Assembly (NCBI RefSeq): GCF_056712565.1
Contig: NZ_CM160072.1
DNA: 64,000 nucleotides
Reading direction: 5' to 3' (one strand)
Part shown: piece after piece, positions 53,201-59,200 of the stretch
Layout: every line of letters begins with the position of its first letter
Position numbering within the stretch: the stretch's first letter is position 1
Program-made: the position numbers

Positions 53201-56200
53201 GGCAGGTAAACTCCTGATGATTCTCTTCATCATCAGTGTCATACACCCGCAGTTCGATATCACGTAGCAGGGTTAAATTCTGTAATCCGTTGAGTACAGG
53301 TGACAGGCGTTCACACAGCGGGGCGCGGGAATGCAATCGGCGGTTGGCCTGCCATAAAAAAGAGAGGATCTGATTTTTATGCTCCAGCCCGGCGGTTTTC
53401 TCCTGAACCCGCTGCTCAAGTACGGCATAACTTTCGGCCAGTTCTGCAGACATATTGTTCAACGCAGTTCCAAGCATCGCCATTTCGTTGCGCCCGCTGA
53501 TGTTTGCGCGTTGGGTAAAATCGCGATGGCTGACGGCACTCGCCATTGCCAGCAGTTGCCGCCACGGTTGTAGCAATCTCGCCCGCAACCAGATAATAGT
53601 GAATACCAGTAAAAGTGCCATAAATACCGCCATTACCCGATGGACCAGCACCACTGTCTCAATGCGCATTTCCGTGGTGCGATCAAAACCAGATACCAGC
53701 TGATCAAGCCCGGCAACAAACTGGCTGACATCCGCTGACACCGTTTCGCGGTTTTGTGCACGCATCAGTGCAGGGATCAGTTCATTACGCCAGTAATCTT
53801 GTAAACCCTGTAATTGCGCCAGTTGCCCGTCTCGTTCTGCTGCTCGAGTCAACTCGGCGCTAAATGCTGTTTGTTCCATCTCTTTAATTAAGGGCTTGTC
53901 TTTCTCGCTTAATGGCACTGCTGCCAACAGACGGTAACTTTGCATGCGCAGCGATCCCGCTTTGTTGATCGCATGGGCGCTGCCCTGAACGCCTTGCACC
54001 AGCCAGCCAGAAACCGCCATCCCTGCCAGTCCAATAGCAGTAGAAAGCAACACAATAAGCGCAACCTGATTAACCAGGGTGAGCGGAGAGAGACAACGTT
54101 TAAGCATGTAAACCTCTTCCTTCAGGCTTTAAATGAGCAATAACCTTAATGAATGTGACGATACATTCTGGAATGGCAGTATTCTCGGCTATTGGCTGAA
54201 GTATACCCATACCCGGAAAGAGTTACTCCTTATTTGCCGTGTGGTTAGTCGCTTTACATCGGTAAGGGTAGGGATTTTACAGCACCGTGAAAAATCTCAT
54301 AATTTTTATGAAATCACTGTACTCACTATGGATAATGATAAATATCAATGATAGATAAAGTTATCTTATCGTTTGATTTACATCAAATTGCCTTTAGCTA
54401 CAGACACTAAGGTGGCAGACATCGAAACGAGTATCAGAGGTGTCTATGAGTCACTCATCCGCCCCCGAAAGGGCTACTGGAGCTGTCATTACAGATTGGC
54501 GACCGGAAGATCCTGCGTTCTGGCAACAACGCGGTCAACGTATTGCCAGCCGCAACCTGTGGATTTCCGTTCCCTGTCTGCTGCTGGCGTTTTGCGTATG
54601 GATGTTGTTCAGCGCTGTTGCGGTGAACTTACCGAAAGTCGGTTTTAATTTTACGACCGATCAGCTATTTATGTTGACTGCGCTGCCTTCGGTTTCTGGC
54701 GCGTTATTACGTGTTCCATACTCCTTTATGGTTCCTATCTTCGGTGGTCGTCGCTGGACGGCGTTCAGCACCGGTATTCTGATTATTCCTTGCGTCTGGC
54801 TGGGTTTTGCCGTGCAGGATACCTCCACGCCTTATAGCGTCTTCATCATCATTTCTCTGCTGTGCGGCTTTGCTGGCGCGAACTTCGCATCCAGTATGGC
54901 AAACATCAGCTTCTTCTTTCCGAAACAGAAGCAGGGTGGCGCGCTGGGTCTGAATGGTGGTCTGGGCAACATGGGCGTCAGCGTCATGCAGTTGGTTGCT
55001 CCGCTGGTGGTATCACTGTCGATTTTCGCAGTATTTGGTAGCCAGGGCGTCAAACAGCCGGATGGGACTGAGCTGTATCTGGCGAATGCGTCCTGGATAT
55101 GGGTGCCGTTCCTTGCCATCTTCACCATTGCGGCGTGGTTTGGCATGAACGATCTTGCTACCTCGAAAGCCTCCATCAAGGAGCAGTTGCCGGTACTCAA
55201 ACGGGGTCATCTGTGGATTATGAGCCTGCTGTATCTGGCAACCTTCGGCTCCTTCATCGGCTTCTCCGCGGGCTTTGCGATGCTGTCAAAAACGCAGTTC
55301 CCGGATGTTCAGATTCTGCAATACGCTTTCTTCGGGCCGTTTATTGGTGCGCTGGCGCGTTCTGCAGGTGGTGCATTATCTGACCGTCTGGGCGGAACTC
55401 GTGTCACTCTGGTGAACTTTATCCTGATGGCGATTTTCAGCGGCCTGCTGTTCCTGACCTTACCGACTGACGGACAGGGCGGAAGCTTCATGGCGTTCTT
55501 CGCAGTCTTCCTGGCGCTGTTCCTGACCGCTGGGCTGGGTAGTGGTTCCACTTTCCAGATGATTTCCGTGATCTTCCGTAAACTGACAATGGATCGTGTG
55601 AAAGCAGAAGGGGGTTCTGACGAACGTGCGATGCGTGAAGCGGCAACCGACACGGCGGCGGCGCTGGGTTTCATCTCTGCGATTGGCGCGATTGGTGGCT
55701 TCTTTATCCCGAAAGCGTTTGGTAGCTCGCTGGCATTAACGGGTTCGCCAGTCGGCGCAATGAAAGTATTTTTGATTTTCTATATCGCCTGCGTGGTGAT
55801 TACCTGGGCGGTATATGGTCGGCATTCTAAAAAATAAATCGTAATATTTGATTATCCTTTGCGCGGCATGATGTCGCGCTTTTTTTATGCGTCATTTAGT
55901 TACAACATACTAATGTTGTATGGCTTATTTCGCTGGATTTCATTAAGAGTCATTAATATGTTACCCATGGGGAATACTCCTTAATACCCATCTGCATAAA
56001 AATCTTAATGGTTTAAATAACTACAGGTGTAAAATGTCTTAATTTACAGTCTGTTATGCTATAAATGTTAATTATCCTAAAGGGGTATTCCAGGAATTTA
56101 CTTTATTTTTCATCCCCATCACTCTTGATCGTTATCAATTCCCACGCTGTTTCAGAGCGTTACCTTGCCCTTAAACATTAGCAATGTCGATTTATCAGAG

Positions 56201-59200
56201 GGCCGACAGGCTCCCACAGGAGAAAACCGATGAGTAAATTCCTGGACCGGTTTCGCTACTTCAAACAGAAGGGTGAAACCTTTGCCGATGGGCATGGCCA
56301 GCTTCTCAATACCAACCGTGACTGGGAGGATGGATATCGCCAGCGTTGGCAGCATGACAAAATCGTCCGCTCTACCCACGGGGTAAACTGCACCGGCTCC
56401 TGCAGCTGGAAAATCTACGTCAAAAACGGTCTGGTCACCTGGGAAACCCAGCAGACTGACTATCCGCGAACTCGCCCGGACCTGCCAAACCATGAACCTC
56501 GCGGCTGCCCGCGCGGTGCCAGCTACTCCTGGTATCTTTACAGCGCTAACCGCCTGAAATACCCGATGATGCGCAAACGCCTGATGAAAATGTGGCGTGA
56601 AGCGAAGGCGCTGCATAGCGATCCGGTTGAGGCATGGGCTTCTATCATTGAAGACGCCGATAAAGCGAAAAGCTTTAAGCAGGCGCGTGGACGCGGTGGT
56701 TTTGTTCGTTCTTCCTGGCAGGAAGTGAACGAACTGATCGCCGCATCTAACGTTTACACCATCAAAAATTACGGCCCGGACCGTGTCGCTGGCTTCTCGC
56801 CAATTCCGGCAATGTCGATGGTTTCTTACGCATCGGGTGCGCGCTATCTCTCGCTGATTGGCGGTACTTGCTTAAGCTTCTACGACTGGTACTGCGACCT
56901 GCCTCCTGCGTCTCCGCAAACCTGGGGTGAGCAAACTGACGTACCGGAATCTGCTGACTGGTACAACTCCAGCTACATCATCGCCTGGGGTTCAAACGTG
57001 CCGCAGACGCGTACCCCGGATGCTCACTTCTTTACTGAAGTGCGTTACAAAGGGACCAAAACTGTTGCCGTCACACCAGACTACGCTGAAATCGCCAAAC
57101 TGTGCGATCTGTGGCTGGCACCGAAACAGGGCACCGATGCGGCAATGGCGCTGGCAATGGGTCACGTAATGCTGCGTGAATTCCACCTCGACAACCCAAG
57201 CCAGTATTTCACCGACTATGTGCGCCGCTACACCGACATGCCGATGCTGGTGATGCTGGAAGAGCGCGACGGTTACTACGCTGCGGGTCGTATGCTGCGC
57301 GCTGCTGATCTGGTGGATGCACTGGGCCAGGAAAACAATCCGGAATGGAAAACTGTCGCCTTTAATACCAATGGTGAAATGGTTGCGCCGAACGGTTCTA
57401 TTGGCTTCCGCTGGGGCGAGAAGGGCAAATGGAATCTTGAGCAGCGCGACGGCAAAACTGGCGAAGAAACCGAGCTGCAACTGAGCCTGCTGGGTAGCCA
57501 GGATGAGATCGCTGAGGTGGGCTTCCCGTACTTTGGTGGCGATGGCACGGAACACTTCAACAAAGTGGAACTGGAAAACGTGCTGCTGCATAAGCTGCCG
57601 GTGAAACGCCTGCAACTGGCTGATGGCAGCACCGCCCTGGTGACCACCGTTTATGATCTGACGCTGGCAAACTACGGTCTGGAACGTGGCCTGAACGACG
57701 TTAACTGTGCAACCAGCTATGACGATGTGAAAGCTTACACCCCTGCCTGGGCCGAGCAGATTACCGGCGTTTCTCGCAGCCAGATTATTCGCATCGCCCG
57801 TGAATTTGCCGATAACGCTGATAAAACGCACGGTCGTTCGATGATTATCGTCGGCGCTGGGCTGAACCACTGGTATCACCTGGACATGAACTATCGTGGT
57901 CTGATCAACATGCTGATTTTCTGCGGCTGTGTCGGTCAGAGCGGCGGTGGCTGGGCGCACTATGTAGGTCAGGAAAAACTGCGTCCGCAAACCGGCTGGC
58001 AGCCGCTGGCGTTTGCCCTCGACTGGCAGCGTCCGGCGCGTCACATGAACAGTACCTCTTATTTCTATAACCACTCCAGCCAGTGGCGTTATGAAACCGT
58101 GACTGCGGAAGAACTGCTGTCGCCGATGGCGGATAAATCTCGCTATACTGGACACCTGATCGACTTTAACGTCCGTGCAGAACGCATGGGCTGGCTGCCG
58201 TCTGCGCCGCAGTTAGGCACTAACCCGCTGACTATCGCTCGCGAAGCAGAAAAAGCTGGGATGAATCCGGTGGACTATACGGTTAAATCCCTGAAAGAGG
58301 GTTCTATCCGTTTCGCTGCGGAACAGCCGGAAAACGGTAAAAACCACCCGCGTAATCTGTTCATCTGGCGTTCTAACCTGCTCGGTTCTTCCGGTAAAGG
58401 TCATGAGTTTATGCTCAAGTACCTGCTGGGGACGGAGCACGGTATCCAGGGCAAAGACCTGGGGCAGCAGGGCGGCGTGAAGCCGGAAGAAGTGGACTGG
58501 CAGGACAACGGTCTGGAAGGCAAGCTGGATCTGGTGGTGACGCTGGACTTCCGTCTGTCGAGCACCTGTCTCTATTCCGACATCATTTTGCCGACGGCGA
58601 CCTGGTACGAAAAAGACGACATGAATACTTCGGATATGCATCCGTTTATTCACCCGCTGTCTGCGGCGGTCGATCCGGCCTGGGAAGCGAAAAGCGACTG
58701 GGAAATCTACAAAGCCATCGCGAAGAAATTCTCCGAAGTGTGCGTTGGTCATCTGGGTAAAGAAACTGACATCGTCACGCTGCCTATCCAGCACGACTCT
58801 GCCGCTGAACTGGCGCAACCGCTGGATGTGAAAGACTGGAAAAAAGGCGAATGCGACCTGATCCCAGGTAAAACTGCACCGCACATTATGGTCGTAGAGC
58901 GCGATTATCCAGCAACTTACGAACGCTTTACCTCTATCGGCCCGCTGATGGAGAAAATCGGTAACGGCGGTAAAGGGATTGCCTGGAACACCCAGAGCGA
59001 GATGGATCTGCTGCGTAAGCTCAACTACACCAAAGCGGAAGGTCCGGCAAAAGGCCAGCCGATGCTCAATACCGCAATTGATGCGGCAGAGATGATCCTG
59101 ACGCTGGCACCGGAAACCAATGGTCAGGTAGCTGTAAAAGCCTGGGCTGCCCTGAGCGAGTTTACCGGCCGTGACCATACGCATCTGGCGCTGAATAAAG

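What the first reader, a model, noticed from the sequence alone, without database searches (positions are those of the whole stretch)
55838..56229. narK-narG intergenic control region with FNR box and NarL-type heptamers
A consensus FNR site (TTGATCGTTATCAA) lies upstream of narG, and TACCCAT heptamers at about 55961-55967 and 55985-55991 resemble NarL-binding heptamers (TACYYMT) at the expected upstream activating position. A second FNR-type box (TTGATTTACATCAA) precedes narK. This is standard, well-described regulation, recorded for completeness.
Basis: partly seen in the sequence, partly recalled or inferred. Interest (0 to 1): 0.1.

Follow-up and report, generated by a model that had tools for sequence, protein, structure and literature searches.

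The report
narG nitrate-reductase promoter region, plus TerD

Summary
Confirmed and ordinary. The window is E. coli; the region is 100% identical to type strain ATCC 11775 and lies between narK (54446-55837) and narG (56230-59973).

- **FNR box:** a perfect TTGATCGTTATCAA sits at 56125-56138. It is one of only two perfect boxes in 64 kb (0.1 expected); the other (54373-54386) precedes narK.
- **Numbering:** with the FNR box at its published -41.5, transcription starts at 56173 and the heptamers fall at -208 and -185.
the TACTCCT heptamer at -195 (55975-55981), the inverted heptamer pair at -101..-86 (56072-56087) and the IHF core (56044-56056).
- **Conservation:** every site is identical in K-12. 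In about 110 enterobacterial species the FNR half-sites are invariant. The -195 heptamer sits at -197 to -194 (usually -195) in 95/110, the inverted pair is kept in 94/110, and the IHF core in 92/110. The -208 heptamer is E. coli-specific.
- **Other known features in the span:** the NarS sRNA seed and narK terminator (55847-55886), without the 123-bp ERIC insert of K-12, and the Tus-binding site TerD (55893-55915, minus strand).

Nothing here is new.

The parts
55824..55886 (+). [quoted passage not shown] The seed TTTGATTATCCTTT is at 55847-55860. The Rho-independent terminator stem is at 55861-55879 and the T7 tail at 55880-55886. The 5' end near 55824 is only inferred from the 63-nt Salmonella NarS-S.
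   Evidence: The terminator was found and folds as a hairpin of 8 pairs (-14.3 kcal/mol for the 64-nt RNA). MG1655 annotates ncRNA narS over the homologous stretch. The seed is the exact reverse complement of AAAGGATAATCAAA at the K-12 nirC ribosome-binding site, matching the 14-bp duplex reported in PMC7038943. A seed core TTG[A/G]TTATC is present in 69 of 106 species loci.
55893..55915 (-). TerD, a 23-bp Tus-binding replication terminus site. It reads CATTAGTATGTTGTAACTAAATG on the minus strand, with G6 and core positions 8-18 intact. It is oriented to block forks moving from narG towards narK.
   Evidence: The Ter core pattern GNRNGTTGTAACKA has its only perfect match in the window at 55897-55910 on the minus strand. 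The 23-mer is identical in K-12, where it maps to about 1279531-1279544, inside the TerD interval 1279446..1279676 given in PMC10287960. The orientation agrees with TerD arresting counter-clockwise forks (PMC5638614). Positive GC skew on the + strand across the window fits the native fork passing in the permissive direction. The motif TAGTTACAACATNC is present at this place in 81 of 107 species loci.
55962..55991 (+). Distal NarL-P binding cluster (the '-195 region'). It holds TACCCAT at 55962-55968 (-208), TACTCCT at 55975-55981 (-195) and TACCCAT at 55985-55991 (-185). A 6/7 inverted heptamer lies at 55967-55973 (-203).
   Evidence: no shuffle of 20,000 gives such a cluster. The cluster is identical in K-12. 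A low-affinity NarL-P footprint centred at -195 is reported in PMC4549865. The block TACYCCTTAATACCC is 80-90% conserved at fixed distance from the FNR box in 105 de-duplicated species.
56044..56056 (+). IHF core site TTACAGTCTGTTA (-129..-117), a 7/9 match to WATCARNNNNTTR.
   Evidence: At this fixed position 92 of 110 species score at least 7/9 and 58 score at least 8/9. The cross-species consensus is AATCAATAAGTTA. The IHF requirement at narG comes from the literature (PMC4549865, PMC3688515, PMC9314961). Binding was not tested here.
56072..56087 (.). Proximal NarL site (the '-89 region'): an inverted heptamer pair in 7-2-7 arrangement, TTATCCT-AA-AGGGGTA (-101..-86). The right heptamer is a strict TACCCCT on the minus strand, centred at -89.
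   Evidence: The site is identical in K-12. A high-affinity NarL-P footprint centred at -89 is reported in PMC4549865. Both heptamers score at least 5/7 at this exact position in 94 of 110 species, against 4 of 4,900 random positions.
56125..56138 (.). FNR box TTGATCGTTATCAA, centred at -41.5 (class II activator position).
   Evidence: 2 found, 0.10 expected. FNR at -41.5 for narGHJI is listed in PMC3688515. The TTGAT and ATCAA half-sites are invariant, while the 4-nt spacer varies, about 100-121 nt upstream of the narG ATG in nearly all of about 120 species loci.
56161..56229 (+). Core promoter and leader: -10 hexamer TACCTT at 56161-56166, inferred +1 at 56173, 57-nt 5' UTR, and Shine-Dalgarno AGGAG at 56218-56222.
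   Evidence: +1 is derived from the published -41.5 position and was not measured here. The block TTTCAGAGCGTTACCTT (-22..-7) is strongly conserved across species.
54373..54386 (.). A second 9/10 box, ATGATAAATATCAA, lies 38 bp upstream at 54335-54348. Strict NarL heptamers are at 54204-54210 and 54224-54230.
   Evidence: A perfect FNR box is present in the narK upstream region of 55 of 60 species loci long enough to test.

Best explanation
The span is the E. coli narK-narG intergenic region (strain ATCC 11775 type sequence). Its right-hand 270 bp is the classical narGHJI promoter.

How it works:
1. Without oxygen, an FNR dimer binds the perfect box centred at -41.5 and recruits RNA polymerase to a weak -10 (TACCTT).
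2. With nitrate, NarX phosphorylates NarL. NarL-P fills an inverted heptamer pair at -101..-86 and a distal cluster of heptamers at -208, -195 and -185.
3. IHF bound around -123 bends the DNA so that the distal NarL-P complex can act on the promoter.

What is shown here: the sites exist, they are identical to the footprinted K-12 sequence, they exceed chance, and they are conserved in sequence and exact spacing across enterobacterial genera. What is taken from published K-12 work and not tested here: binding, bending and activation.

The left-hand ~80 bp belongs to other known functions. It holds the NarS sRNA/narK terminator, which represses nirC translation by seed pairing, and the Tus-binding fork barrier TerD.
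For: Identity:
- The region is 100% identical to E. coli ATCC 11775 and is found in 5,415 of 5,426 complete E. coli genomes.
- The flanking genes are annotated narX, narK and narG.

Sites and chance:
- FNR box: 2 found against 0.10 expected.
- Heptamer cluster: 0 of 20,000 shuffles reach it.
- Positions -208, -195, -185 and -89 all follow from the single published anchor of -41.5 (PMC3688515; PMC4549865).
- None of the 16 intergenic substitutions downstream of the K-12 insert touches a site.

Cross-species footprint (loci):
- FNR half-sites are invariant.
- The -195 heptamer lies at -197 to -194 in 95/110 species.
- The 7-2-7 pair is kept in 94/110, against 4/4,900 random positions.
- The IHF core scores at least 7/9 in 92/110.
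- The -22..-7 block is conserved.

Other features:
- NarS: annotation, seed/nirC complementarity, terminator, PMC7038943.
- TerD; PMC10287960; PMC5638614; PMC8347550.
Against: - No binding, transcription-start or expression data exist for this strain. +1 is inferred from K-12.
- The E. coli IHF core is only a 7/9 match and would not be called from sequence alone (one search found no match of 8/9 or better in that region).
- The -208 heptamer is confined to E. coli sensu stricto (2/110 species), so its role rests on K-12 literature that I recalled but could not open.
- One paper states that the narG sites 'lack any 7-2-7 sites' (PMC4549865). The -101..-86 pair is an imperfect 7-2-7, with a left heptamer of 5/7.
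Confidence: 0.95

Rival explanations
1. The TACYYMT heptamers are chance matches in AT-rich intergenic DNA and only the FNR box is functional.
For: The heptamer is short and degenerate: 45 strict matches occur in the window, most inside genes.
Against: No shuffle of 20,000 gives three same-strand heptamers within 30 bp. The -195 heptamer and the adjacent TAATACCC are 80-90% conserved at a fixed distance from the FNR box, although the DNA between them is unconserved. NarL-P footprints at -195 and -89 are published for the identical K-12 sequence (PMC4549865).
Confidence: 0.02
2. The whole 392-bp span is one narG control region, including the DNA immediately after narK.
For: The span is a single intergenic gap. 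The distance from the Ter motif to the FNR box is fairly stable across species (226-228 bp in 58 of 81).
Against: A fragment from -223 to +70 is treated as the full-length narG promoter (PMC9314961), and -223 corresponds to window 55950. Everything to the left is accounted for by the NarS seed and terminator (55847-55886) and TerD (55893-55915). The Ter-to-FNR distance drifts continuously from 215 to 240 with no helical periodicity. By contrast the -195-to-FNR distance is exact.
Confidence: 0.05
3. The palindromic box at 56125-56138 is a CRP site, or is read by another CRP/FNR-family protein, rather than by FNR.
For: CRP and FNR sites are related 5-N-5 palindromes at the same class II position. 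A narG derivative can be driven by CRP once its site is swapped in (PMC9314961).
Against: The half-sites are the FNR consensus TTGAT/ATCAA, not TGTGA/TCACA, and they are invariant in about 110 species. An FNR ChIP-seq peak and a -41.5 site are listed for narGHJI in PMC3688515.
Confidence: 0.01

Closest known systems
E. coli K-12 narGHJI promoter (FNR -41.5; NarL-P at -89 and -195 regions; IHF about -125)
   Same: Every recognised element is base-for-base identical and at the same spacing. The neighbours narX, narK and narG are the same.
   Different: There are 16 intergenic substitutions downstream of the insert, all outside the sites. They include a 6-of-7 block at -114..-108 (window CTATAAA, K-12 TGGTGGC) and a 3-base block at -84..-82. 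Other Escherichia and other genera are also AT-rich at the -114..-108 patch, so K-12 is the odd one.
NarS, the narK 3'-UTR-derived Hfq-dependent sRNA (Wang et al., PMC7038943)
   Same: The seed is complementary to the nirC ribosome-binding site over 14 nt. It is followed directly by a GC-rich terminator hairpin and a U7 tail.
   Different: K-12 carries a 123-bp insert right after the narK stop and is annotated with a 184-nt NarS. This window lacks the insert, so its NarS should be the compact form of about 60 nt seen in Salmonella. 2,457 of 5,416 E. coli genomes with a match have the insert; the rest do not.
TerD, one of the Tus-bound sites of the E. coli replication fork trap
   Same: It is the same 23-mer as K-12 at the same locus and in the same orientation. 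G6 and core positions 8-18 match the Ter consensus (PMC8347550, PMC10287960, PMC5638614).
   Different: Nothing differs within E. coli. Extra observation: the same Ter core sits between the narK terminator and the narG promoter in 81 of 107 enterobacterial species sampled. The two fork-trap papers I read do not state this synteny.
narK promoter (FNR- and NarL-dependent)
   Same: It has a perfect FNR box 60 nt before the narK ATG, a second near-consensus box 38 bp upstream, and strict NarL heptamers further upstream.
   Different: It lies outside the stated coordinates. The -41.5/-79.5 assignment is from my memory of the literature and was not verified here.

Membership tests
FNR-activated class II promoter | Inverted repeat TTGAT-N4-ATCAA | tested here: met
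   A perfect 10/10 match lies at 56125-56138. Only 2 occur in 64 kb against 0.10 expected.
FNR-activated class II promoter | Box centred near -41.5 from the transcription start, with a -10 hexamer about 29 bp downstream of the box centre | tested here: inconclusive
   The start was not measured. With the published -41.5 (PMC3688515), +1 is 56173 and a conserved TACCTT falls at -12..-7, which is self-consistent.
FNR-activated class II promoter | FNR-dependent anaerobic induction | not testable with these tools
   Known for K-12 narG (PMC3688515, PMC8139620).
NarL-activated promoter | NarL heptamers TACYYMT, preferably as an inverted 7-2-7 pair | tested here: met
   Four strict heptamers are present. 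The inverted pair at 56072-56087 scores 5/7 and 7/7. The cluster is beyond chance.
NarL-activated promoter | Sites coincide with the NarL-P footprints of the characterised promoter (-89 and -195 regions) | tested here: met
   Heptamer centres fall at -89 and -195 when anchored on the FNR site. The sequence is identical to K-12. The footprints are reported in PMC4549865.
NarL-activated promoter | Evolutionary conservation of sites and spacing | tested here: met
   The -195 heptamer is kept in 95/110 species and the pair at -101..-86 in 94/110. The -208 heptamer is kept in only 2/110 and a strict -185 heptamer in 11/110.
IHF binding site | Core WATCARNNNNTTR | tested here: inconclusive
   E. coli scores 7/9 at -129..-117. 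Other genera score 8-9/9 at the same fixed position (58 of 110). The binding evidence comes only from the literature.
NarS 3'-UTR sRNA | Single-stranded seed complementary to the nirC ribosome-binding site, directly upstream of a Rho-independent terminator with a U tail | tested here: met
   The seed at 55847-55860 is the reverse complement of K-12 nirC AAAGGATAATCAAA. The terminator was found. nirC of this strain itself was not read, but the 71-nt nirC leader stretch is at least 95% identical in 5,370 of the 5,415 matching E. coli records.
NarS 3'-UTR sRNA | RNase E processing and Hfq binding | not testable with these tools
   Shown in Salmonella (PMC7038943).
Ter site (Tus-Ter fork barrier) | 23-bp site with G6 and the conserved core at positions 8-18 (ATGTTGTAACT) | tested here: met
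   The minus strand of 55893-55915 reads CATTAGTATGTTGTAACTAAATG. It is the only perfect core match in the window. The consensus and critical positions come from PMC8347550.
Ter site (Tus-Ter fork barrier) | Orientation that lets the native fork pass and blocks the opposing fork | tested here: met
   Position 1 faces narG. GC skew is positive on the + strand across the window, so the native fork travels from narK to narG, the permissive direction. This agrees with TerD arresting counter-clockwise forks (PMC5638614).
Ter site (Tus-Ter fork barrier) | Tus binding and fork arrest | not testable with these tools
   Reported for TerD in K-12 (PMC8707476, PMC10287960).

The most novel reading that the evidence does not exclude
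TerD is not merely a neighbour of the nar control DNA. Its placement in the transcription-free pocket between the narK terminator and the narG upstream activating region is an ancient, selected arrangement. It is kept in about three quarters of sampled enterobacterial species, at a roughly constant 226-228 bp from the FNR box. Bound Tus might therefore act on the locus, as a boundary against narK read-through or as an architectural partner of the NarL/IHF complex. Alternatively, the locus might protect Tus-Ter from being dislodged by transcription. A related open point is whether the ERIC insert carried by 45% of E. coli changes NarS processing or dosage.
Probability: 0.08. Interest if true: 0.4.

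Novelty: already known. Interest (0 to 1): 0.1.

Why it matters
As found, it matters little. It is a textbook promoter, correctly recognised, and useful mainly as a positive control for the scan.

The added value of the second look is a complete parts list for the 392 bases. It shows that a gap labelled 'control region' in fact carries three unrelated known functions: an sRNA with its terminator, a replication fork barrier, and a promoter.

The cross-species footprint also shows which sites carry the constraint. The -195 heptamer, the -101..-86 pair, the IHF core and the FNR half-sites all sit at fixed spacing.

The conserved synteny of TerD with narK-narG could help assign orthology to Ter sites in Salmonella and other genera. 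Published fork-trap comparisons left that orthology open.

Tried and rejected
- **Rfam scan of 53900-56500:** no family reached threshold. The two weak hits (L20 leader, KCNQ1OT1) are chance matches driven by the terminator. NarS appears not to be matched by any Rfam model.
- **Sigma-70 consensus scan:** it found no promoter in the narK-narG gap. This is expected for an activator-dependent promoter with a weak -10 and no -35.
- **Small ORFs in the gap (22-41 aa):** no supporting evidence, not pursued.
- **Primary papers:** the narG promoter papers (Walker & DeMoss 1992; Rabin et al. 1992) are not held. Positions were therefore taken from later open papers that cite them.
- **IHF consensus scan at 8/9 or better:** it found nothing in the expected place in E. 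coli. The site emerged only from the cross-species alignment.
- **The conserved TAGTTACAACATACT motif:** I considered a further NarL heptamer (TACTAAT, 6/7, at -262), a promoter element, or another regulator's site. I rejected these because the invariant part is the Ter core, while the bases that would complete a heptamer vary.
- **Helical phasing between TerD and the narG promoter:** the distances form a continuous spread (215-240, mode 228) with no 10-11 bp periodicity, so there is no support.
- **Short-query megablast of the TerD stretch across E. coli:** uninformative because of word-size limits.
- **TerD sequence in print:** a literature search for the exact string did not give a usable listing. 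TerD identity rests on the published genome interval, the Ter consensus and the orientation.

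
Full report
**What the region is**

The span 55838-56229 is exactly the gap between the stop codon of narK (54446-55837) and the start codon of narG (56230-59973). narX is divergent further left, at 52311-54107. The 392 bases are 100% identical to Escherichia coli ATCC 11775 and occur once in 5,415 of 5,426 complete E. coli genomes. Identity to K-12 is about 96%. RefSeq annotation of the matching records names the flanking genes narX, narK and narG.

**Check of the observation**

- The FNR box TTGATCGTTATCAA is at 56125-56138 and TTGATTTACATCAA is at 54373-54386. They are the only perfect TTGAT-N4-ATCAA matches in the 64-kb window, against 0.10 expected.
- A strict TACTCCT heptamer lies between them at 55975-55981, and a strict TACCCCT on the other strand at 56081-56087.
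- The gap holds 4 strict heptamers against 0.48 expected from 20,000 dinucleotide shuffles of the gap itself (24 of 20,000 reach 4). No shuffle reproduces three same-strand heptamers in 30 bp.

**Alignment with the characterised promoter**

Aligned to MG1655, the gap differs by one 123-bp insertion in K-12 and by 17 substitutions, 16 of them downstream of the insert. No substitution falls in the FNR box, a NarL heptamer, the IHF core, the -10 element, the NarS seed and terminator, or the Ter site.

The substitutions cluster at -114..-108 (window CTATAAA, K-12 TGGTGGC) and at -84..-82. The first patch varies in every lineage examined, and K-12 is the GC-rich outlier.

The FNR site of narGHJI is published at -41.5 (PMC3688515), which puts +1 at 56173. 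The four strict heptamers then centre at -208, -195, -185 and -89. These coincide with the low-affinity '-195 region' and the high-affinity '-89 region' protected by NarL-P in DNase I footprints (PMC4549865). The same paper and PMC3688515 state that FNR and IHF are also required. PMC9314961 treats -223 to +70 as the full-length promoter and shows that its upstream segment confers nitrate induction.

**Independent evidence from other genera**

One pattern scan for the first 44 nt of narG returned 120 loci from about 100 enterobacterial species. I anchored each on its FNR box.

| Element | Result across species |
|---|---|
| FNR half-sites | TTGAT and ATCAA invariant; the 4-nt spacer varies (CGTT, CATC, CGCC, CCCC...); box starts mostly 100-121 nt before the ATG |
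| -195 heptamer | A strict TACYYMT heptamer at -197 to -194 (usually exactly -195) in 95/110 |
| Block around -195 | TACYCCTTAATACCC 80-90% conserved, although the roughly 100 bp between it and the FNR box is otherwise unconserved |
| Strict -185 heptamer | 11/110 |
| -208 heptamer | 2/110 (E. coli only) |
| Inverted pair at -101..-86 | Both heptamers at least 5/7 in 94/110, against 4/4,900 random positions |
| IHF core at -129..-117 | At least 7/9 in 92/110 and at least 8/9 in 58/110; consensus AATCAATAAGTTA; E. coli itself only 7/9 |
| -22..-7 block | TTTCAGAGCGTTACCTT, containing the -10 TACCTT, conserved |

The exact spacing without sequence conservation in between is what the published looping model (NarL-P plus an IHF bend) predicts.

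**Mechanism**

Anaerobic FNR binds at -41.5 and recruits RNA polymerase. Nitrate acts through NarX and NarL-P, which fills the -101..-86 pair and the -208/-195/-185 cluster. IHF near -123 bends the DNA to bring the distal cluster to the promoter.

Shown here: presence of the sites, their identity to the footprinted sequence, their excess over chance and their conservation. Taken from K-12 literature: binding, bending and activation.

**What else is in the stated span**

*NarS and the narK terminator.* The narK terminator lies at 55861-55886. It is preceded by TTTGATTATCCTTT (55847-55860), which is the exact complement of the nirC ribosome-binding region AAAGGATAATCAAA. This is the NarS sRNA described in PMC7038943 and annotated in MG1655.

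K-12 has a 123-bp imperfect palindrome inserted right after the narK stop. It carries both ERIC-PCR primer sites, with 2 to 3 differences each (primers from PMC3696847). It is therefore an ERIC element, and it explains the 'insertion' noted in PMC7038943. The window lacks it, as do about 55% of E. coli genomes; 2,457 of 5,416 with a match have it.

*TerD.* The cross-species view exposed an invariant TAGTTACAACATACT just after the terminator. Its reverse complement is the Ter core. The minus strand of 55893-55915 reads CATTAGTATGTTGTAACTAAATG, and this is the only perfect Ter-core match in the window.

In MG1655 the motif maps to about 1279531-1279544, inside the TerD interval given in PMC10287960. 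G6 and core positions 8-18 are intact (criteria from PMC8347550). Its orientation blocks forks moving from narG towards narK. That fits the statement that TerD arrests counter-clockwise forks (PMC5638614) and the positive GC skew of the window.

The same motif, always with G6, sits at this place in 81 of 107 species. Its distance to the FNR box is 226-228 bp in 58 of 81 but otherwise drifts between 215 and 240 without periodicity. I therefore see no evidence of phasing with the promoter.

**The narK promoter**

A second 9/10 box lies 38 bp upstream (54335-54348), and strict heptamers are at 54204 and 54224. A perfect FNR box is kept upstream of narK in 55 of 60 loci long enough to test.

**Verdict**

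The finding is ordinary and already known. Nothing in the region requires a new explanation.

Noticed in passing
window 55893-55915 (minus strand): TerD, the Tus-binding replication fork barrier, lies inside the stated span about 6 bp after the narK terminator tail. None of the three RefSeq records I inspected annotates it. The same Ter core is found between narK and narG in 81 of 107 enterobacterial species loci. This gives an orthology anchor for Ter sites in other genera.
   Followed up: yes
window 55838-55842 versus L003 (MG1655) 2355-2477: K-12 carries a 123-bp ERIC element immediately after the narK stop, inside the NarS precursor. The window strain lacks it. 2,457 of 5,416 E. coli genomes with a match have the insert, so NarS exists in a long and a short form within the species.
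   Followed up: partly
window 55847-55886: The NarS sRNA seed and terminator are here. The seed is perfectly complementary over 14 nt to the K-12 nirC ribosome-binding site. No Rfam model reported it.
   Followed up: yes
window 56059-56065 and 56089-56091: Two compact substitution blocks separate this strain from K-12: 6 of 7 bases at -114..-108 and 3 of 3 at -84..-82. Both lie just outside the IHF core and the -89 heptamer. The first patch is hypervariable in all lineages, and K-12 is the GC-rich outlier.
   Followed up: partly
L125 (E. coli FDAARGOS_943) 3249-4169, corresponding to about window 56085: In one complete genome an IS1A element is inserted in the narG control region at about the -89 NarL site. 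It separates the IHF and distal NarL sites from the FNR box. I did not examine the effect on narG regulation.
   Followed up: partly
summary (no window coordinates): Thirteen of the 5,432 matches to the narK-narG gap lie on records classed as plasmids. This suggests copies of the nar locus on large plasmids, or chromids or misassigned replicons.
   Followed up: no
window 55901-55918: ACAACAT-ACTA-ATGTTGT is a perfect 7-bp inverted repeat that overlaps the Ter core. Its right arm is specific to E. coli: K-12 has one mismatch, and other genera lack it. Probably fortuitous.
   Followed up: partly
window 56152-56616 (minus strand): A 154-aa ORF runs antisense across the narG start. It is very likely a spurious shadow ORF of the GC-rich narG coding sequence.
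   Followed up: no
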